Source: a virus
Lineage: Duplodnaviria > Heunggongvirae > Uroviricota > Caudoviricetes
Length of the DNA: 38,061 nt
Reading direction: 5' to 3' (one strand)
Virus record (IMG/VR): IMGVR_UViG_2541047882_000004
The notes below the pieces were generated by a model, which was not told the origin of the DNA, ran no database searches, and saw only the letters and a list, made by a program, of their open reading frames with translations. Within the stretch, counting starts at the first letter, position 1, and every line of letters starts with the position of its first letter. A program made the position numbers and the translations under genes. Below are positions 10,840-17,228 of the stretch, one piece after another.

Positions 10840-12227
10840 CAACACCAGTCTGGCGTAACGATGATCTGGAAGGCGCTGTCATTGGCGCGTTCTTTCTGCG
10901 TGGGGCAGATCATGAAGTGATGGATATTCTGGCCACATTGCCGGCAGACGTTTTTTCTGTACGAGCGTATCGGGATATCTACACAGGCATCTGCAGACAG
11001 GCCCGTGTTTCAGGTGTGATTGATCCTGTGCTGTTGTGTAATGAGATGCCGGAACTTGCTCCGGTGATTACTGATACCGGGCGTAAAACCTGGGTGAAGT
11101 CTTCACTGGAGCACTATGTTACGGCGTTGCGTCGCAATGCTGCATTGCGTGATGCAGAAAAAACACTTAATGAGGCGTTGCAGAAATTACGTGATGCGCA
11201 TACCTGTGAAGCAGCTGAAGATGCCCTGAAGGATGCGCAGAACATGATGGCCTCATTGTCGACGGAAAAGGGCATTATTCAGCCGGTACATATTGATGAT
11301 GTGCTTCCGGAGGTGGTTGAGCGTGTTGAATGCCGGAATCAGGGGCTGGAGAAATCCAGGACGTTGATGACCGGTATTGATGAACTGGACGCAAAAACAG
11401 GCGGCATGGAGCCCGGCGACCTGGTATTTATTGCGGCTCGTCCGTCAATGGGCAAAACCGAACTGGCGCTGGATATCATCGACAAGGTGACTGAGCAGGG
11501 GCATGGTGTTCTTCTGTTCACAATGGAAATGGCGAACATCCAGATTGGTGAACGCATGGTATCTGCGGCTGGAGGAATGCCGGTATCACGCCTGAAATCT
11601 GTCACTCACTTTGAAGACGAAGACTGGGCACGTTTCTCTCAAGGGGTGGGGCGGATGACCGGGCGCAATATCTGGATGGTGGACCAGGCGAACCTGAGCA
11701 TTGACGAGATATGCGCAACAACGAAACACCACCTGATTAAACATCCGGAAACGGCGCTGGTGGTGGTTGATTATCTCGGGCTGATAAAAACCCGAACCAC
11801 GGGGCGTCATGACCTTGCCGTTGGTGAAATCTCAAAGGGGCTTAAAGGCCTGGCAAAATCCGGTGGTTTTCCGTTGATTGCGCTGAGCCAGCTTTCCCGT
11901 GGTGTGGAGTCCAGACCCAATAAACGCCCCATGAACTCAGACCTGAAAAATTCCGGAGAAATAGAGGCGGATGCTGACATCATTCTGATGCTTTACAGGG
12001 ATGAAGTGTACAACCCGGATACGCAGGCCAGGGGCATCGCAGAAATCAATATCACGAAACAACGTAACGGTTCTCTGGGGACGATTTACCGGCGTTTTTA
12101 TAACGGACATTTTCTGCCTGTGGATCAGGAAAGCGCACAGATTCTTTCCACCCCAATGCAGCAACCCCAGCCGCGCAGATACAGCAACAAACGAACTGAC
12201 AGCAGTAAGATGGAGCGTTTATTTTGA
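10836..12227 (+). CDS. DnaB-like replicative DNA helicase
   Basis: Walker A AARPSMGKTELALD and DnaB-type C-terminal domain. Start set at ATG 10836, overlapping the loader stop (ATGA); the track ORF 10728.. is an upstream extension. Confidence 0.9.
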   Translation: MTTPVWRNDDLEGAVIGAFFLRGADHEVMDILATLPADVFSVRAYRDIYTGICRQARVSGVIDPVLLCNEMPELAPVITDTGRKTWVKSSLEHYVTALRRNAALRDAEKTLNEALQKLRDAHTCEAAEDALKDAQNMMASLSTEKGIIQPVHIDDVLPEVVERVECRNQGLEKSRTLMTGIDELDAKTGGMEPGDLVFIAARPSMGKTELALDIIDKVTEQGHGVLLFTMEMANIQIGERMVSAAGGMPVSRLKSVTHFEDEDWARFSQGVGRMTGRNIWMVDQANLSIDEICATTKHHLIKHPETALVVVDYLGLIKTRTTGRHDLAVGEISKGLKGLAKSGGFPLIALSQLSRGVESRPNKRPMNSDLKNSGEIEADADIILMLYRDEVYNPDTQARGIAEINITKQRNGSLGTIYRRFYNGHFLPVDQESAQILSTPMQQPQPRRYSNKRTDSSKMERLF

Positions 12228-12481
12228 ACAACCAGACAATGACGTTTACCCCTGAACAACTACGTAAACAGGCACAGGAAATGTTGCGACAGGCGGAACA
12301 ACTGGAAAAAACAGGTGTAACAAAAGATGCCATTCGTCGGGATATGGTGCCGGCGCTCAGGGAACTGATGCAGGCGAAACATCGCGCACAAAAAGCAGTG
12401 GATGAGCTGGTGGATTGTGTGGCGGAGCTGGAAACCAAAGTTGGAAAGTTTGAAAAGCTGGTGCAGGAGGTACTGCGCTGA
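12224..12481 (+). CDS. Hypothetical coiled-coil protein (85 aa)
   Basis: Track ORF with predicted helical, charged sequence; start is TTG (GGAG RBS) or the ATG at 12239. Confidence 0.45.
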   Translation: MNNQTMTFTPEQLRKQAQEMLRQAEQLEKTGVTKDAIRRDMVPALRELMQAKHRAQKAVDELVDCVAELETKVGKFEKLVQEVLR

Positions 12482-12828
12482 TGCGTGATATGTACGAAGT
12501 TTTAGATCGTTGGGGGGCTTGGGCTGCAGCAGAAAATAGTGGTGTCGACTGGCAGCCGATAGCGGCTGGTTTCAAGGGGCTTCTACCACACGGTAAAAAG
12601 TCACGTCTCCAGTGCGATGATGATGAAGGAATTATGATTGATGGATGTGTGGCCCGGTTGCGGAAATATAAACCAGAAGAATATGAGCTGATCATTGCTC
12701 ACTTTGTTATTGGTGTTTCTCTACGCTCAATCGCGAAGAAACGCAGGTGCTCAGATGGAACTATAAGAAAGGAGCTGCAAACTGCATTAGGCTTTATTGA
12801 TGGATGTAGATGCTTGATTCTATCATAG
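12481..12828 (+). CDS. Q-like late-gene antiterminator
   Basis: 115 aa; MRDMYEVLDRWGAWAA...IAAGFKGLL...CDDDEG...CSDG matches the Q-antiterminator family pattern as I recall it from E. coli cryptic prophages; GGAGGTA RBS. Confidence 0.7.
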   Translation: MRDMYEVLDRWGAWAAAENSGVDWQPIAAGFKGLLPHGKKSRLQCDDDEGIMIDGCVARLRKYKPEEYELIIAHFVIGVSLRSIAKKRRCSDGTIRKELQTALGFIDGCRCLILS

Positions 12829-12840
12829 CTATGGCTGTCA

Positions 12841-13227
12841 CTACTCATTTACTTGAGCTTTCGATTCGGCGTCAGATAAAGCATCAATACGAATGTTTAT
12901 GTTTTTTAATAGCTTGTTGTCTAGATCGATAAGACATTGGTTGTAGTGCGCAATTTGGTCTGGTGTTAGGTTAGGGTTGGCCAGGCAGTTCGTGATGAAT
13001 TTTCTGGCCGTTTTTATTTCCCTTTTCATTCTTACATCATTAAGCGTAGGCAAACCTAGGTAAGCGATAAGAAGAATTACCACGTGAGATAAGCCGACAG
13101 CAGCTCCAGGCGCTAATGATTTGAAGAAGGCTAATTGAGGAAGCCAGTCAAAAAGGAAATTCAATCCCGCAGTGATAAGGGTGGTAAACCATGCCTGCAT
13201 TGCCAGGTAGGATTTAGTGTTAGCCAT
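12841..13227 (-). CDS. Membrane protein (128 aa), unknown function
   Basis: Two or three predicted N-terminal transmembrane helices and a C-terminal helical domain; last gene of a three-gene minus-strand cassette. Confidence 0.6.
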   Translation of the reverse strand: MANTKSYLAMQAWFTTLITAGLNFLFDWLPQLAFFKSLAPGAAVGLSHVVILLIAYLGLPTLNDVRMKREIKTARKFITNCLANPNLTPDQIAHYNQCLIDLDNKLLKNINIRIDALSDAESKAQVNE

Positions 13228-13473
13228 TCACCTTCCTGCACTTGCTTCGTTGCGAGTTTTGAGTTCGCGTAACAGTAACGCCAACTGTTCTGCGTCATTT
13301 TCGTTTCTAACGCTGACTTTCCTTTTAGCGGTTCTGCCTTCAGGATCGGTGTAGGTTAGTTCAATGTACGCATTCGGCTTTACCCAAACCAAGAACCTAA
13401 GCACAGCATATCTGACCATCGCTGCGACAGCCATGAATACAGTGATGTAAAGCATAATGCTTAGGATTGACAT
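13228..13473 (-). CDS. Small membrane protein (81 aa), unknown function
   Basis: N-terminal transmembrane helix (LSIMLYITVFMAVAAMV); tightly packed between neighbours, 3 nt from the upstream stop. Confidence 0.55.
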   Translation of the reverse strand: MSILSIMLYITVFMAVAAMVRYAVLRFLVWVKPNAYIELTYTDPEGRTAKRKVSVRNENDAEQLALLLRELKTRNEASAGR

Positions 13474-13476
13474 GAT

Positions 13477-14355
13477 TTAAAGTAGTTTCCTATCTGCCGC
13501 CGCTCTGTGGCGTATAACCTTAGTAATACTATAGCGTGGTTTAGACAGCGCGCCATTTGTTTCTTTTGTTGTTTCTGTCAGTTCTACAACAAAAAGATCA
13601 CCCTTACAGAATGCTGCTTGGTTGTGTTCAACCCGTTCAAGAAAAGCCTCATCTTTCATAGATGCGCTAACTTCTTCGCCATTTGGCAGGATGATATCCC
13701 AGCTTTTGCCTTGCTTGAATCGAACATTAGCAAAATGTACATTAGCTTGGCGTGTCGTTACGTGCGTTTTCTCGACAAAGGTGGATTTTGCAGTTTTAAA
13801 ACTTGCTGCTTCAGCTTGCGTCACCCTGACTACCTTATGCTTCTGCTGTGAAACTGAGAACGTGGATGGTTTTTCAGTCTGCAGGGGTTTATAGATTAAT
13901 TTATCCAGTTCTTTTCGGATGATTGGACTGGTTATTAATTTTTGAATGTCGTTACTGCATTTAACCTTCTCACCATCCACTTCGATTTCTGCTGTATCTT
14001 TTTGTTCATCGACGACAATGGAGCTGATTTTACGCCCTTTGAGCCATTCGATTATCCCGAGTACGCCGCCTGCGGCAACTCCACCACCAGCAACGAGGCC
14101 AAGAGCGTTAATAGTTTTTATGCTTCCCATCACAGCAACAAGCAAAGTAAATGAACCTTCTTTTGTTGCCTTGATGTTGACTTTCGGCTCTGCTGTTTCG
14201 CCATTAATTATTTTTTCGGCATGTTCAATCAGGGCACTAAGAGAGGTTAAGGCTTCGCCTAATGTTTTGGCGTCGATCTGATTATCTGCGTATGCCTCTC
14301 CACCGTAGGCAATTTCGATTTCTGTTATTGGCATGTTTTCGAGCTGCTGTGCCAT
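13477..14355 (-). CDS. Hypothetical protein (292 aa) with central Gly-rich hydrophobic segment
   Basis: Track ORF 13477..14388 trimmed to ATG 14355 (AAGGA RBS 8 nt upstream); central LLVAVMGSIKTINALGLVAGGGVAAGGVLGIIEWL segment; no family recognised. Confidence 0.6.
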   Translation of the reverse strand: MAQQLENMPITEIEIAYGGEAYADNQIDAKTLGEALTSLSALIEHAEKIINGETAEPKVNIKATKEGSFTLLVAVMGSIKTINALGLVAGGGVAAGGVLGIIEWLKGRKISSIVVDEQKDTAEIEVDGEKVKCSNDIQKLITSPIIRKELDKLIYKPLQTEKPSTFSVSQQKHKVVRVTQAEAASFKTAKSTFVEKTHVTTRQANVHFANVRFKQGKSWDIILPNGEEVSASMKDEAFLERVEHNQAAFCKGDLFVVELTETTKETNGALSKPRYSITKVIRHRAAADRKLL

Positions 14356-14622
14356 CAAAAGCATCCTTTGCGAAAGATAAATAGCCACAGGATACAGATA
14401 ATTATGAAAAAATCACTAACGCGTACGCAAAAAATATCTTAATCTGTTAAGAGTGGTTACTTCGCCACACAGCTTAAACCCGCCGCCGGGCGTTTTTTCT
14501 ATACCTGAAAAACGGCACAGGACGTTAAATGCGCTGGTGGTTGCGAATACGAGGCTTTCAGCTTGCTGGCTTTTTCGACAAGAGTTATTGGTATGTCACG
14601 TTAACCAGAAAAGGGAAAAGAC

Positions 14623-14820
14623 ATGCTAAAACAGCAGGATATGACCGAAACTGCCAGAGTGGTGTTTAATGAATTAAGCGTCACCGAACCGGCGACCGTC
14701 GGGGAAATTGCGCAGAATACTTACCTTTCACGCGAACGCTGCCAGTTAATACTGACTCAGCTTGTTATGGCGGGTCTGGCAGATTATCAGTTCGGTTGTT
14801 ACAGACGCCTTCCGCAGTGA
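14623..14820 (+). CDS. Small winged-helix/HTH-like DNA-binding protein (65 aa)
   Basis: AAGGGAAAAG RBS; PATVGEIAQNTYLSRERCQLILTQLVMAGL resembles a winged-helix recognition region; sits upstream of the methyltransferase. Confidence 0.45.
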   Translation: MLKQQDMTETARVVFNELSVTEPATVGEIAQNTYLSRERCQLILTQLVMAGLADYQFGCYRRLPQ

Positions 14821-14970
14821 AGGCTTTTTTATTTGTGGTAATGGGCGGCTGGTGGGTGTTAGCGGCACCTGCCAGCCATCTGCTCATGCGTTGTGGTCAC
14901 AAGCAAACCTCAGGCCCATCTGCTTTGCGCAAAAGCGGTATGAGCCTATCAGAGAAGTGCTTATTGATCT

Positions 14971-16011
14971 ATGGCTAATACTGTAAAAATATCCAGTTGT
15001 GAGTTAATCAACGCTGATTGCCTGGAATTTATCCAGACCTTACCGGAAAACTCTGTCGATCTGATAGTCACAGACCCGCCATACTTTAAAGTGAAGCCCG
15101 AGGGCTGGGATAACCAGTGGAAAGGTGACGATGATTACCTGAAATGGCTGGACCAGTGTCTGGCGCAATTCTGGCGGGTACTGAAGCCTGCCGGAAGTCT
15201 CTACCTGTTCTGTGGTCATCGCCTGGCATCTGATATCGAAATCATGATGCGTGAGCGCTTTAATGTGCTGAACCACATTATCTGGGCGAAGCCGTCCGGA
15301 CGCTGGAACGGATGCAACAAGGAAAGCCTGCGGGCGTATTTCCCTGCAACAGAACGCATTCTGTTTGCAGAACATTATCAGGGGCCATACCAGCCCAAAA
15401 ATGACGGCTATGCGGCAAAGGGACGCGAGCTAAAACAGCACGTCATGGCCTCGCTGATTTCTTACTTTCGTGATGCGCGTGAATCACTGGGAATAACGTC
15501 AAAACAGATAGCGGAAGCCACCGGAAAGAAAAATATGGCTTCGCACTGGTTTGGTGCCAGTCAGTGGCAGTTACCGAACGAAGCTGATTACAGAAAACTG
15601 CAGGCATTGTTTGCGCGTGTTGCAGCAGAAAAGCATCAGCGCGGGGAACTGGAAAAGCCACACCACCAGCTGGTCAGCACATACAGTGAACTGAACCGGC
15701 AATACGCCAGCCTGCTGGAAGAGTACAAATCCCTGCGGCGTTATTTTTCCGTATCGGCAGCTGTTCCTTATACGGATGTCTGGACGCATAAACCTGTACA
15801 GTTTTATCCGGGCAAACATCCCTGTGAAAAACCGGCGGATATGTTGCGGCAGATAATTAACGCCAGTAGCCGTCCCGGTGATTTGGTCGCTGACTTTTTT
15901 ATGGGGTCTGGCTCAACAATAAAAGCAGCACTTTCGCTGGGGCGTCGTGCGGTTGGCGTGGAACTGGAAGAAGAGAGATTTAATCAGACTGTAAGTGAAA
16001 TAAAAAAATAG
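14971..16011 (+). CDS. Orphan DNA methyltransferase (beta-class amino-methyltransferase, N6-adenine or N4-cytosine)
   Basis: Motif IV DPPY near the N-terminus and AdoMet motif I FFMGSGST near the C-terminus (beta-class order); no restriction endonuclease partner adjacent. Confidence 0.85.
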   Translation: MANTVKISSCELINADCLEFIQTLPENSVDLIVTDPPYFKVKPEGWDNQWKGDDDYLKWLDQCLAQFWRVLKPAGSLYLFCGHRLASDIEIMMRERFNVLNHIIWAKPSGRWNGCNKESLRAYFPATERILFAEHYQGPYQPKNDGYAAKGRELKQHVMASLISYFRDARESLGITSKQIAEATGKKNMASHWFGASQWQLPNEADYRKLQALFARVAAEKHQRGELEKPHHQLVSTYSELNRQYASLLEEYKSLRRYFSVSAAVPYTDVWTHKPVQFYPGKHPCEKPADMLRQIINASSRPGDLVADFFMGSGSTIKAALSLGRRAVGVELEEERFNQTVSEIKK

Positions 16012-16186
16012 TCGTTAAATACGAATATCACTTATTTCTAAACTTCAGGAAAAATAAGAAGCTATACGTATATTTGCAAATGTTGGCGCAATTTTTATTG
16101 AGAAAATAACTGCCCTCATTATTATTTGCTCCGGTTCTGAGGGGAACTCCTGTTCATCGGTGATATCGCTCCCCCGAAGAACCAAT

Positions 16187-16262
<76 letters not shown>

Positions 16263-16265
16263 TAT

Positions 16266-16337
<72 letters not shown>

Positions 16338-16597
16338 CTAACAGTAGACGATGCCAGGCTGTGTTGGGCACTGACACATTTTATGTGGGGCGTTTTTCCT
16401 GACTCCTTACCTCGCCCTGTACTGTAATGAGTGATATCGGTTGCAGCACCAGTGCCATTTTTTACGCCACCGGAATGGTGCATTATTGGTAGAGATTTGC
16501 AATGTCTCTGGCAGGGGGCTGGTAATGCATCATTCCGATGTTGTAAACATCGCTCAGATAACGTTGAAATCAATCAAACCCAGGAAATACATCCTTA

Positions 16598-16622
16598 ACC
16601 GCCGCACCAGGCGGTTTTTTTA
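16598..16622 (+). terminator. Intrinsic terminator downstream of the tRNA region
   Basis: Stem ACCGCC/GGCGGT (16598-16615) with loop GCACCA, followed by TTTTTTT. Confidence 0.5.
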
Positions 16623-16642
16623 TTCACAATCCTGTTTCTTAT

Positions 16643-16668
16643 GGCTCGCTACGGCGGGCCTTTTTTAT
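16643..16668 (+). terminator. Second tandem intrinsic terminator
   Basis: Stem GGCTCGC/GCGGGCC with loop TACG, followed by TTTTTT. Confidence 0.4.
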
Positions 16669-16802
16669 ATCCGCGCCACGCCCGGCGCACATCAAAAACC
16701 ACAGAGCCTTTCAGGGGTGAGCTTACGGGATGGTCAGTGTGACTTTCTCTGTGGGCTGGTCACCCCCGGGCGCAGGCTCACCCACTAAAAGGAAAAGTCA
16801 CG

Positions 16803-17228
16803 ATGTTTGGTATTTTCAAAAAGAAAACCCGCAAGGCCATTACCGAAGTGAAGAAGATGGAGAACCGCGACGCAGTGGAGGCGACCGTCTGGGGTGCGTA
16901 TTCCATTGCATATGCTGACGGCACCTGTGACGCGAAAGAAATCGCAGTACTGGAGAAAACCATTGCAGCACTTCCTGCCTTTGCGCCGTTCTCCGGTGAG
17001 ATTGCACAAATGAGTGCAAATATCCGCGCCCGTTATGAAGCGTCACCTCGTAGTGCGAATGCTCAGGCTTTGCGTGAACTGGCTGATGTGGCAGGAACCG
17101 CCGAAGCGGTTGATGTGCTGTGCCTGTGTCTTGATATTGCTGACCAGGACGGCATTGGTCCGGATGAAGAAGCGCAGCTCAAGAAAATTGCTCAGGCGCT
17201 GCAGTTGCCGCTGGAGCAGTACCTGTGA
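16803..17228 (+). CDS. TerB-like protein
   Basis: 141 aa; paired ADG...D..E...L and IADQDGIGPDEEAQL motifs characteristic of TerB-type domains; AAAAGGAAAAG RBS. Confidence 0.6.
   Translation: MFGIFKKKTRKAITEVKKMENRDAVEATVWGAYSIAYADGTCDAKEIAVLEKTIAALPAFAPFSGEIAQMSANIRARYEASPRSANAQALRELADVAGTAEAVDVLCLCLDIADQDGIGPDEEAQLKKIAQALQLPLEQYL

What the first reader, a model, noticed from the sequence alone, without database searches (positions are those of the whole stretch)
12841..14388. Three-gene minus-strand cassette inserted between the Q antiterminator and the late region
Three tightly packed genes on the opposite strand sit between the Q-like gene and the methyltransferase/tRNA/lysis region. They encode a 292 aa protein with a central glycine-zipper-like hydrophobic segment, then an 81 aa single-pass membrane protein and a 128 aa multi-pass membrane protein. 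I recognise no known family in any of them. This Q-to-lysis interval is a classic cargo site in lambdoid prophages, and the layout of a soluble or peripheral protein plus small membrane partners resembles abortive-infection or superinfection-exclusion modules such as RexAB-type designs. It is the strongest candidate here for an undescribed defence or exclusion system, but the function is entirely inferred.
Basis: partly seen in the sequence, partly recalled or inferred. Interest (0 to 1): 0.72.

Follow-up and report, generated by a model that had tools for sequence, protein, structure and literature searches.

The report
Prophage three-gene gp29-like defence cassette
A 1.6 kb, three-gene cassette inserted just after a prophage's Q gene encodes a distant relative of a mycobacteriophage anti-phage protein (MichelleMyBell gp29) plus two small membrane proteins, so it is probably an E. 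coli-type version of a proven defence system whose mechanism is unknown.

Summary
Three translationally coupled minus-strand genes lie between the Q antiterminator and the late-promoter region: A (292 aa), B (81 aa, one TM) and C (128 aa, two TM). An E. coli prophage with the same Q but no cassette shows it is a discrete ~1.57 kb insertion.

The claim of "no known family" is wrong for A. It matches PADLOC candidate PDC-S42 (2e-53) and NCBIfam LAPAL_fam (5e-67). More importantly, it is a full-length homologue of mycobacteriophage MichelleMyBell gp29 (hhalign 98.8%, E 4.5e-17). gp29 is the toxic partner of the validated, abortive-infection-type MMB gp29/gp30 prophage defence.

B and C have no known family and no detectable similarity to gp30. 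They nevertheless follow A in every proteobacterial locus examined: two lambdoid slots, Mu-like prophages, an integrative island, a tectivirus-like element and megaplasmids. All three genes are under strong purifying selection. The LAPAL clade of the family is solo.

Context supports defence. One copy lies next to a DRT8 system, and phiP27 carries a PD-Lambda-1-like gene in the same slot.

Best reading: a prophage-borne, membrane-linked abortive-infection module, a new three-gene variant of a known but mechanistically unsolved kind. Function and mechanism remain inferred.

The parts
12829..14402 (-). Inserted cassette as a whole (~1.57 kb), comprising C, B, A and 47 nt upstream of A's ATG
   Evidence: E. 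coli Combat2C1 prophage L146 has the same Q (91% identity) joined directly to the sequence that follows the cassette in the window. A synthetic Q-end + 14407.. query matches it in one piece across the junction. Imperfect 9-bp direct repeats flank the insert: ATAGCTATG at 12825-12833 and ATAATTATG at 14398-14406. GC is 0.42-0.45 here versus ~0.50 in the flanks.
13477..14355 (-). Gene A, 292 aa, MichelleMyBell gp29-like protein (PADLOC PDC-S42 / NCBIfam LAPAL_fam / phrog_3243). An alternative GTG start lies at 14388.
   Evidence: Family hits: PDC-S42 2e-53, NF053583 5.4e-67 at 226 bits against a cutoff of 60, phrog_3243 1e-94. Versus MMB gp29: hhalign 98.8%, E 4.5e-17; BLASTP 23% over 273 aa, E 1e-7. 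AAGGA RBS at 14364-14368. dN/dS 0.05.
14128..14328 (-). A residues 10-76: the most conserved N-terminal alpha/beta domain (strand, long helix carrying the 'LAPAL'-equivalent TLGEAL, two strands ending in the invariant GSF)
   Evidence: AF2 model, pLDDT 82 overall. This stretch has the lowest column entropy. Pfam DUF7946 matches this region in 58 of 141 relatives.
14038..14127 (-). A residues 77-106: Gly/Ala-rich semi-hydrophobic helix-loop-helix ending in WLKGRK. Candidate latent membrane-active element.
   Evidence: KD 1.97 over residues 84-102. AF2 gives short helices 79-85 and 98-105 with a low-confidence loop at 91-95. A sub-threshold Pfam EACC1 hit covers residues 81-140 (E 0.016, 15.6 bits against a cutoff of 23.6).
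13795..14028 (-). A residues 110-187: middle alpha/beta domain. Its C-terminal part (166-210) is the most variable stretch of the protein.
   Evidence: AF2 secondary structure; entropy profile.
13501..13779 (-). A residues 193-285: C-terminal beta1-beta2-beta3-alpha-beta4-beta5 barrel (OB-fold-like) ending in the conserved VxRHR
   Evidence: The AF2 element order matches OB topology. Foldseek hits IF1, eIF1A, eIF5A and SSB at E 8e-4 to 1e-2 in PDB and similar folds in BFVD. The tool does not report which residues aligned, so the assignment to this domain is inferred from topology.
13228..13473 (-). Gene B, 81 aa: N-terminal TM helix plus a ~50-aa basic C-terminal domain predicted to be cytoplasmic (phrog_27630)
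   Evidence: phrog_27630 7e-57; no Pfam, PADLOC or NCBIfam hit. A B-type ORF (79-88 aa, one TM) sits at the same position in the triad loci, checked by sequence in 43 and by ORF size and hydropathy in the rest. Alignment A3. dN/dS 0.06-0.08. Not annotated by PGAP in E. coli.
12841..13227 (-). Gene C, 128 aa: two TM helices (4-28, 30-57) plus two helices (62-82, 89-127) predicted to be cytoplasmic (phrog_26468)
   Evidence: AF2 pLDDT 80.6. phrog_26468 1e-88, with no other family. Conserved in position and length across the triad loci; alignment A4. Its ATG abuts B's TGA. dN/dS 0.04-0.08.
14356..14430 (-). Region upstream of A: RBS plus the only sigma-70-like match, TTGCGT-18-CATAAT (14430..14401). 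Its -10 hexamer straddles the insertion junction.
   Evidence: Read from the sequence. It falls below the thresholds of the promoter scan, which reported nothing here. This is a weak assignment.
12481..12828 (+). Context: Q-family antiterminator, convergent with gene C and separated from it by 12 nt
   Evidence: ORF list. The 98%-identical E. coli gene is annotated 'antiterminator Q family protein'.
14403..14622 (+). Context: the backbone intergenic region that directly follows Q in Stx2 phages and in the empty-site prophage (presumed pR'/qut region). Contains a hairpin plus T6 at 14479-14498.
   Evidence: 86-95% identity to the Q-to-ORF65 intergenic region of Stx2 phages and phiP27. Junction alignment. 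Hairpin read from the sequence. Promoter function is inferred by analogy with lambdoid phages.

Best explanation
The cassette is a self-contained accessory module carried by a lambdoid prophage. It most likely acts as an abortive-infection type anti-phage defence, and it is related to the MichelleMyBell (MMB) gp29/gp30 system of cluster N mycobacteriophages.

Components:
- Protein A (292 aa) is the gp29 homologue. It is cytoplasmic (no signal peptide) and has no conserved catalytic motif. It has a conserved N-terminal alpha/beta domain, a Gly-rich semi-hydrophobic hairpin, a variable middle region and a C-terminal OB-like barrel.
- Proteins B (one TM) and C (two TM) are inner-membrane proteins. 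By the positive-inside rule their basic soluble domains face the cytoplasm.

Proposed mechanism. In the lysogen the three proteins are made together through translational coupling, and A is held at or by the B/C membrane complex in an inactive state. An infecting phage supplies a trigger, sensed by A (the OB-like domain or the variable middle domain are the candidates). A and/or B/C then compromise the inner membrane, and the infection aborts after DNA entry.

During the prophage's own lytic growth, rightward early transcription through Q runs antisense into the cassette and could dampen its expression.

Shown here: the gene structure, the insertion boundaries, homology to gp29, the conserved A-B-C order, purifying selection, and the mobile-element and defence-island contexts.

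Inferred: expression in the lysogen, topology, A-B/C interaction, the trigger, the membrane as target, and any phenotype.
For: Homology to a validated system:
- A versus MMB gp29: hhalign probability 98.8%, E 4.5e-17 over 268 columns, nearly end to end.
- Direct BLASTP gives 23% identity over 273 aa, E 1e-7.
- gp29 itself hits the PDC-S42 HMM at 1.6e-16.
- gp29 (310 aa) is followed by an overlapping 67-aa two-TM protein, gp30, in the lysis-to-integrase accessory region. The layout is the same: a ~300-aa protein followed by a small membrane protein.

What the literature says about MMB gp29/gp30:
- A toxic protein plus a putative membrane protein, defending against lytic phages (PMC11856565).
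- Behaves as typical abortive infection, with adsorption and DNA injection proceeding (PMC6426606).
- Gives a 4-5 log reduction in plating efficiency against phage Tweety (PMC8549241).

The family was predicted independently as defence. All 141 diverse relatives match PDC-S42, a guilt-by-embedding candidate drawn from BREX, DISARM and type I RM loci (bioRxiv 10.1101/2024.01.29.577857).

The three genes form a unit:
- A-B-C order, sizes and overlapping or abutting junctions hold in all enterobacterial, Orbaceae, Vibrio and Pseudomonas loci, and in all 16 scorable loci of the 17 recovered for the A6 clade.
- Locus tags are consecutive in public records.
- dN/dS is 0.04-0.08 for each gene.

Behaviour as mobile cargo:
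- Discrete insertion with an empty site.
- A different lambdoid slot (hokD to DUF968) in other E. coli prophages.
- The end of an Enterobacter integrative island carrying a VapE-like primase.
- Mu-like prophages.
- A tectivirus-like Vibrio element, beside its integrase.
- Pseudomonas megaplasmids.
- About 1.5 kb from a DRT8 system in Tatumella, and the phiP27 slot equivalent is PD-Lambda-1-like.

Other support:
- Among 50,697 cultured-phage records, relatives were found only in phages that carry an integrase or are prophage-derived, or infect actinobacterial hosts.
- Only ten positions are >=90% conserved and one (F238) is invariant across 141 members, and none forms a catalytic motif. This fits a non-enzymatic, membrane-directed effector.
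Against: - No experiment bears on this cassette or on any proteobacterial member. PDC-S42 is explicitly untested.
- Identity to gp29 is only 23%, and function may not be conserved over that distance.
- B and C show no detectable homology to gp30.
- Most of the family (the LAPAL clade, 80 loci) has no membrane partner at all, so membrane partners are not intrinsic to the family's activity.
- No convincing promoter was found upstream of A.
- AF2 packs the Gly-rich segment as short helices on a globular protein rather than as a TM helix. Its hydropathy is borderline across the family, with medians of 1.4-1.7.
- The EACC1 similarity is below threshold, and the OB-fold similarity is weak.
- NCBI names the family 'putative phage structural protein'.
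- The primary MMB paper (Dedrick 2017) could not be read here, so its details come from secondary sources.
Confidence: 0.6

Rival explanations
1. Superinfection exclusion at the envelope. B and C, with A as a cytoplasmic accessory, block DNA entry or an early membrane step of incoming phages, in the manner of Charlie gp32, HK97 gp15 or P22 Sie, rather than killing or arresting the infected cell.
For: Two of the three products are small inner-membrane proteins. The cassette is prophage cargo, positioned for expression independent of the late operon. Cluster N phages also encode a membrane-protein exclusion system (PMC6426606; PMC9262239).
Against: The homologous MMB system is described as abortive infection with DNA injection proceeding, and gp29 as toxic. 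The best-conserved and largest component is the cytoplasmic A, and most of the family lacks membrane partners. Occurrence on megaplasmids, on islands and, by PADLOC's report, embedded in BREX/DISARM/RM loci fits general defence better than phage-specific exclusion.
Confidence: 0.12
2. A toxin-antitoxin-like addiction or stabilisation module, or another lysogenic-conversion function with no anti-phage role. A is the toxin, B/C are neutralisers, and the module persists because it stabilises the mobile elements that carry it.
For: gp29 is reported to be toxic. The module sits on many kinds of mobile element, including megaplasmids and islands. The genes are tightly translationally coupled. No phenotype has been shown for any proteobacterial member.
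Against: MMB gp29/gp30 confers strong phage defence. One copy neighbours DRT8, and the slot equivalent is PD-Lambda-1-like. The order of a large protein first and small proteins downstream, with non-labile membrane partners, is atypical for type II TA systems. Many defence systems also look like TA modules, so the two readings are not exclusive.
Confidence: 0.12
3. A phage structural, morphogenetic or lysis-accessory function, as NCBIfam's name 'putative phage structural protein' implies or as proximity to lysis genes in some phages might suggest.
For: The NCBIfam name. In Mu-like Orbaceae and Gilliamella prophages the cassette lies directly upstream of, and on the same strand as, the holin-like and transglycosylase genes. 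In Lactobacillus phage A2 and in MMB it follows the lysis genes.
Against: In the window it is on the opposite strand from all late genes and upstream of the late-promoter region. An otherwise similar prophage lacks it entirely. It occurs on plasmids, on an integrative island and beside DRT8, none of which has virion genes. No structural, holin or spanin family matches any of the three proteins in PHROGs, Pfam or NCBIfam. No virion-protein fold was found.
Confidence: 0.04

Closest known systems
MichelleMyBell (MMB) gp29/gp30 prophage-mediated defence (Dedrick et al. 2017; DefenseFinder 'MMB_gp29_gp30')
   Same: A is a full-length homologue of gp29, with shared motifs: GSF, the Trp of the C-terminal barrel, DExFLxRV, and the terminal xKVxxHR. 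The layout is the same: a ~300-aa protein followed at once by a small membrane protein with overlapping or abutting reading frames. Both are prophage accessory-region cargo.
   Different: Identity is only 23%. There are two membrane partners (81 aa with one TM, 128 aa with two TM plus a helical domain) instead of one 67-aa two-TM protein, and neither is detectably homologous to gp30. The host is a Gram-negative enterobacterium. The insertion site is Q to pR' on the opposite strand rather than lysis to integrase. No phenotype is known.
PADLOC phage defence candidate PDC-S42 (Payne et al. 2024 preprint), which is also NCBIfam NF053583 LAPAL_fam and Pfam DUF7946
   Same: A matches the PDC-S42 HMM at 2e-53 and LAPAL_fam well above its cutoff. 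All 141 diverse relatives match PDC-S42.
   Different: PDC-S42 is listed as a single-gene, untested candidate, whereas this clade is a conserved three-gene operon. The eponymous LAPAL motif is absent here (TLGEAL instead) and is found in only 29 of 141 relatives. The window protein does not reach Pfam DUF7946 at E<=1. The link between PDC-S42 and the validated gp29 does not appear in PADLOC's output or in the sources read here.
Lambda RexA/RexB and Sbash gp30/gp31
   Same: This is a design analogy only: a prophage-expressed cytoplasmic sensor-like protein of ~280-300 aa plus membrane protein(s), proposed to abort infection by membrane depolarisation (PMC6426596).
   Different: The RexA/Sbash gp30 signature DUF4747 is not detected in A or its relatives. 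Neither fold search surfaced a RexA-like chain. RexB and gp31 have four TM helices, whereas B has one and C has two. The genes are also in a different genomic position from the cI-rex operon.
EACC1 pore-forming effector (Kaur et al. 2020; Evans et al. 2025 preprint)
   Same: EACC1 has a conserved helix with a central patch of small or Gly residues followed by beta-strands, which is its toxic pore-forming part. A residues 81-140 align to EACC1 profile positions 42-102.
   Different: The score is 15.6 bits against a cutoff of 23.6, and only 5 of 141 relatives hit. No caspase-like protease partner is present in any locus. A is three times larger, with flanking domains. This is a lead, not an established relationship.
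phiP27 L22 (PD-Lambda-1-like) and other occupants of the Q-to-pR' slot
   Same: Same backbone position in closely related phages, with different cargo between Q and the ORF65/methylase genes. L22's C-terminal half matches PD-Lambda-1 at 2e-89.
   Different: Unrelated proteins. L22 is a single plus-strand gene.

Membership tests
MMB gp29/gp30 defence system | A gp29-family protein | tested here: met
   hhalign of A2 versus gp29: 98.8%, E 4.5e-17, 268 columns. BLASTP E 1e-7, 23% identity over 273 aa. Both proteins hit the same PADLOC HMM.
MMB gp29/gp30 defence system | A gp30-family small membrane protein encoded immediately downstream | tested here: not met
   hhalign of the B alignment and the C alignment against gp30 gives probabilities of 0.5% and 0.2%. 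Positional analogues do exist: two small membrane proteins directly downstream with abutting or overlapping frames. Short TM proteins may simply have diverged beyond detection.
MMB gp29/gp30 defence system | Carried in a prophage accessory (non-essential) region | tested here: met
   Discrete insertion with an empty-site counterpart. On the opposite strand from the surrounding early and late genes.
MMB gp29/gp30 defence system | Lysogenic expression, gp29 toxicity, and an abortive-infection phenotype against heterotypic phages | not testable with these tools
   Requires RNA-seq of a lysogen, expression of A with and without B/C, and phage challenge. Only a weak promoter-like match was found.
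PADLOC PDC-S42 | Match to the PDC-S42 HMM | tested here: met
   PDLC05015 at 2e-53, covering residues 22-299 of the 303-aa form.
PADLOC PDC-S42 | Single-gene system | tested here: not met
   B and C follow A in every locus of this clade that could be scored. The solo architecture holds only for the LAPAL clade.
NCBIfam NF053583 LAPAL_fam | Score above the curated cutoff | tested here: met
   226 bits against a cutoff of 60.
NCBIfam NF053583 LAPAL_fam | LAPAL motif | tested here: not met
   The aligned position reads TLGEAL in the window protein. LAP[AS]L occurs in 29 of 141 relatives.
Pfam DUF7946 | Match to PF25678 | tested here: inconclusive
   No hit for the window protein at E<=1. 58 of 141 relatives hit, best 2e-8, over the N-terminal ~135 residues.
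RexAB-type exclusion | RexA-like protein (Pfam DUF4747) plus a four-TM RexB-like channel | tested here: not met
EACC1 effector | Pfam PF19953 match above the gathering score | tested here: inconclusive
   15.6 bits against 23.6, E 0.016, and 5 of 141 relatives. No EACC1 sequences could be obtained for a profile-profile test.
EACC1 effector | Adjacent caspase-like protease gene | tested here: not met
   No protease gene lies beside A in any locus inspected.
Phage structural or lysis proteins | Homology to a virion, holin, spanin or endolysin family, or placement in the late operon | tested here: not met
   All PHROG hits are 'unknown function'. No matching Pfam or NCBIfam family. The cassette is on the opposite strand, upstream of the late-promoter region.

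The most novel reading that the evidence does not exclude
The A-B-C triad is a previously unrecognised membrane-attack defence.

- A would be a latent pore-forming or membrane-disrupting effector. Its Gly-zipper segment plus the following beta-strands would be a cryptic EACC1-like module, kept buried by the flanking domains.
- The OB-like C-terminal barrel would sense a phage nucleic acid or protein.
- B and C would be a new pair of inner-membrane receptors or gatekeepers that replace gp30.

The same effector core would then run in three formats: solo, with gp30, and with B/C. It would be found across Actinobacteria, Firmicutes and Proteobacteria, activated without a protease.
Probability: 0.2. 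Interest if true: 0.72.

Novelty: new variant of a known kind. Interest (0 to 1): 0.5.

Why it matters
MMB gp29/gp30 is a validated prophage defence with no known mechanism, studied only in Mycobacterium smegmatis. PADLOC still lists PDC-S42 as untested.

This work shows that the two are one superfamily of at least 2,900 clusters at 50% identity. It also shows that Enterobacteria carry a distinct three-gene form, present in 37 of 5,426 complete E. coli genomes at 98% identity. That gives an E. coli-tractable entry point to the mechanism, using a coliphage panel, standard genetics and membrane assays.

There are two annotation consequences:
- The NCBI name 'putative phage structural protein' is probably misleading.
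- Gene B is missing from RefSeq annotation, which is one reason the system looks like a single gene.

The Q-to-pR' junction of phiP27-like and Stx-like prophages also emerges as a swap site for defence cargo.

Tried and rejected
- **Sequence profile against PDB.** Nothing below E 0.1.
- **EACC1 lead.** I could not obtain EACC1 sequences from the two papers' supplements, so no profile-profile test was possible. The lead stays sub-threshold.
- **gp30 versus B or C.** No similarity.
- **Family searches for B and C.** Pfam, PADLOC and NCBIfam returned no significant hit. Profile searches of 5.8 billion proteins returned only 'hypothetical protein' entries in the same operons.
- **Promoter and terminator scan.** No promoter upstream of A. 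An internal match at 14078..14051 is within chance expectation, with 2 found against 4.5 expected.
- **Rfam scan of 12000-17000.** Only the two tRNAs.
- **Locus searches.** The search for related loci with the 141-sequence alignment failed for lack of a conserved stretch, so I used clade sub-alignments instead. The genome-contig scan returned only 3 loci.
- **Literature.** No hits for PDC-S42, 'LAPAL motif', DUF7946 or the RefSeq accessions. The DefensePredictor preprint has no held supplements, so I could not check whether this cassette was tested there. Dedrick 2017 is not held.
- **Phrann 'gp29-gp30'.** This (p)ppGpp synthetase system is a different system with the same gene numbers. It is not related to A.
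- **Small ORFs after solo-clade A genes.** They look like non-coding translations, so I did not count them as partners.
Full report
**1. Observation**

The three minus-strand ORFs exist as described.
- A is 13477..14388 from a GTG start. The biologically likely start is ATG 14355 (292 aa), preceded by AAGGA at an 8-nt spacing. PGAP uses this start in E. coli copies.
- B is 13228..13473 (81 aa).
- C is 12841..13227 (128 aa).

B's ATG lies 3 nt after A's stop. C's ATG abuts B's TGA inside a GGAAGGTGA ribosome-binding site, so the genes are probably translationally coupled.

A Q-family antiterminator (12481..12828, +) converges on C with a 12-nt gap. To the right lie a 65-aa ORF, a DNA methyltransferase, tRNA-Thr and tRNA-Gly, and then the late genes. 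GC falls to 0.42-0.45 over the cassette, against about 0.50 in the flanks.

**2. A discrete insertion**

The 14407-14700 segment to the right of the cassette matches the intergenic region that directly follows Q in Stx2 phages and phiP27. By analogy with lambdoid phages this is the presumed pR'/qut region.

I joined the end of Q to 14407 onward as a synthetic query. E. coli prophages match it across the junction in a single piece. In strain Combat2C1 the same Q (91% identity) runs straight into that sequence. The cassette is therefore a ~1.57 kb insertion (about 12829-14402) placed between Q's stop codon and the late-promoter region.

Imperfect 9-bp direct repeats sit at the two junctions. This may be chance or microhomology.

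The identical junctions and cassette (98% identity) occur in 37 of 5,426 complete E. coli genomes. No cultured-phage record carries the cassette at the DNA level.

In phiP27 the same slot holds L22. Its C-terminal half matches the validated PD-Lambda-1 at 2e-89. Other prophages hold an ORF6N gene there or nothing. The slot is a cargo swap site.

**3. Protein A belongs to known families**

Protein A matches:
- PADLOC PDC-S42 at 2e-53;
- NCBIfam NF053583, 'LAPAL motif-containing putative phage structural protein', at 226 bits against a cutoff of 60;
- phrog_3243, function unknown.

A profile search of 1.84 billion representative proteins finds 2,915 clusters at E<=1e-3. Among the best 150 listed, almost all are 280-320 aa. 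All 141 diverse members tested hit PDC-S42, and 58 hit Pfam DUF7946 over their N-terminal half.

PDC-S42 is one of 145 explicitly untested 'guilt-by-embedding' candidates, derived from genes nested in BREX, DISARM and type I RM loci.

**4. Structure of A**

AF2 with 23 homologues gives pLDDT 82 and pTM 0.71. The model has four parts:
- an N-terminal beta-alpha-beta-beta domain, the most conserved part;
- short helices 79-85 and 98-105 flanking a Gly-rich loop;
- a middle alpha/beta domain;
- a C-terminal beta1-3-alpha-beta4-5 barrel.

Only ten positions are >=90% conserved and one (F238) is invariant across 141 members, and none suggests catalysis.

The central segment is semi-hydrophobic, with KD 1.97 here. 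The median is 1.69 in partner-bearing relatives and 1.42 in solo ones. It gives a sub-threshold Pfam EACC1 hit. EACC1's Gly-patch helix plus beta-strands is a protease-released pore former. I treat this only as a lead.

**5. The three genes form a unit**

tblastn and ORF inspection of 43 loci show B-like and C-like genes directly after A down to 37% A identity. B-like genes are 79-88 aa with one N-terminal TM. C-like genes in these enterobacterial, Orbaceae and Gilliamella loci are 124-132 aa with one or two N-terminal TM helices.

The pattern continues more distantly in a Vibrio tectivirus-like element and in Pseudomonas megaplasmids (A about 26-32% identical), where C is 139-161 aa. It also holds in all 16 scorable IMG/VR loci of the related clade, where C is 108-132 aa.

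B and C diverge faster than A. All three are nonetheless under strong purifying selection, with dN/dS 0.04-0.08. PGAP omits B in E. coli.

AF2 gives C two TM helices plus two helices that I predict to be cytoplasmic. By the positive-inside rule the soluble parts of both B and C face the cytoplasm, where A (no signal peptide) resides. This topology is inferred.

In contrast, 80 loci of the LAPAL clade, and Lactobacillus phage A2 ORF19, have no such partners.

**6. Link to a validated system**

The Vibrio homologue carries the annotation note 'MMB_gp29_gp30__gp29'. I therefore fetched mycobacteriophage MichelleMyBell.

gp29 (310 aa) aligns with the A family almost end to end: hhalign 98.8%, E 4.5e-17. 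It aligns directly with the window protein at 23% identity over 273 aa, E 1e-7, and it hits the PDC-S42 HMM at 1.6e-16.

gp30 is a 67-aa two-TM protein that overlaps the end of gp29. It shows no detectable similarity to B or C.

The primary paper is not held. According to papers I could read:
- MMB gp29/gp30 is a toxic protein plus a putative membrane protein, conferring defence by an unknown mechanism (PMC11856565).
- It behaves as abortive infection, with adsorption and DNA injection proceeding (PMC6426606).
- It reduces Tweety plating by 4-5 logs (PMC8549241).

The Phrann 'gp29-gp30' system is a different, (p)ppGpp-synthetase system.

gp29 relatives occur in cluster N phages, M. abscessus prophages, and Gordonia and Bifidobacterium phages.

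**7. Context**

The module turns up in many kinds of mobile element:
- a second lambdoid slot, hokD to DUF968, on the early-operon strand;
- the cargo end of an Enterobacter integrative island carrying a VapE-like primase and a resolvase;
- Mu-like prophages, just upstream of the lysis genes;
- beside the integrase of a Vibrio element;
- megaplasmids;
- about 1.5 kb downstream of a DRT8 reverse-transcriptase defence system in Tatumella (Drt8 8e-151, associated nuclease 3e-73).

This is how defence cargo behaves, not how a virion component behaves.

**8. Mechanism**

My best-supported explanation is a prophage-borne abortive-infection module. I give 0.6 to the defence role and considerably less to the details.

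A would be the gp29-like sensor/effector, docked at or restrained by the B/C inner-membrane pair. Infection would release or activate it, and the inner membrane would be compromised.

Convergent early transcription through Q could silence the cassette antisense during the prophage's own lytic growth.

Every step beyond homology, architecture and context is inferred. In particular, no convincing promoter was found. The only match, TTGCGT-18-CATAAT, straddles the junction and fails the scan's thresholds.

**9. Rivals**

- Envelope-level superinfection exclusion (0.12).
- A TA-like stabilisation module without an anti-phage role (0.12).
- A structural or lysis role, as the NCBI name implies (0.04).

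The last is contradicted by strand, position, the empty site, non-phage contexts and the absence of any structural or lysis family match.

**10. Comparison and novelty**

This is not a RexAB relative. DUF4747 is not detected, and no four-TM partner exists; the resemblance is one of design only.

It is a member of the gp29/PDC-S42/LAPAL superfamily. However, it represents a distinct three-gene architecture whose two membrane components have no known family. I rate it a new variant of a known kind.

Its value is practical. It ties an 'untested' PADLOC candidate to a validated mycobacteriophage system. It corrects a probably misleading protein name and a missing gene call. It also offers an E. 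coli model for a defence whose mechanism is unknown.

Noticed in passing
window 12825-12833 and 14398-14406; L146 2840-2870: Imperfect 9-bp direct repeats (ATAGCTATG and ATAATTATG) flank the cassette. The empty site in E. coli Combat2C1 reads ATAAGTTATG. This could be microhomology-mediated insertion or chance.
   Followed up: partly
window 13228-13473 (gene B); L001 12530-12778: RefSeq/PGAP leaves the 81-aa gene B unannotated in 98%-identical E. coli copies, although it is conserved and under purifying selection (dN/dS 0.06-0.08). This helps explain why PADLOC lists the family as a single-gene candidate.
   Followed up: yes
L145 6383-7315 (MichelleMyBell gp29): The experimentally validated gp29 matches PADLOC's 'untested' PDC-S42 HMM (1.6e-16), so the candidate family already contains a validated member. 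NCBI's family name, 'putative phage structural protein', looks unsupported.
   Followed up: yes
L005 2735-3964 (phiP27 L22): L22, annotated as a GIY-YIG nuclease family protein, occupies the same Q-to-pR' slot. Its C-terminal half matches the validated PD-Lambda-1 at 2e-89. L006 has an ORF6N-domain gene there, and Stx2 phages have nothing.
   Followed up: partly
window 16803-17228: A 141-aa TerB-like gene sits downstream of the tRNAs, where phiP27 carries stx2e. Related prophages annotate it 'TciA/TerB-like' or tellurite resistance protein. It has no PADLOC hit.
   Followed up: partly
window 14479-14498 (+): A short GC hairpin (CCCGCCGCCGGGCG) followed by T6 lies inside the presumed pR' region. 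It is conserved in the empty-site prophage and may be a tR'-type terminator on which Q acts. It is too short for the terminator scan to report.
   Followed up: no
L002 2124-4522 (Tatumella saanichensis): A complete DRT type 8 system lies about 1.5 kb upstream of the A-B genes (RT 8e-151, PD-(D/E)XK partner 3e-73). The contig ends before gene C.
   Followed up: partly
L146 3079-4365 (E. coli Combat2C1 prophage): The cassette-free relative carries a scabin-related ADP-ribosyltransferase and a subtilase AB5 toxin B subunit downstream of Q, in the toxin cargo position.
   Followed up: no
L048-L127 versus L128-L144: The superfamily splits cleanly by architecture. The LAPAL-motif clade (80 viral contigs, GC 0.32-0.69) is solo. 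The clade containing the window protein always has B and C. The central segment is more hydrophobic in the partner-bearing clade (median KD 1.69 versus 1.42, Mann-Whitney p 6e-4).
   Followed up: partly
window 14400-38061: The prophage is a mosaic. Only the Q-proximal, methylase and lysis part is phiP27-like (92% identity), and the best phage record covers just 14% of the right-hand 23.7 kb queried.
   Followed up: no
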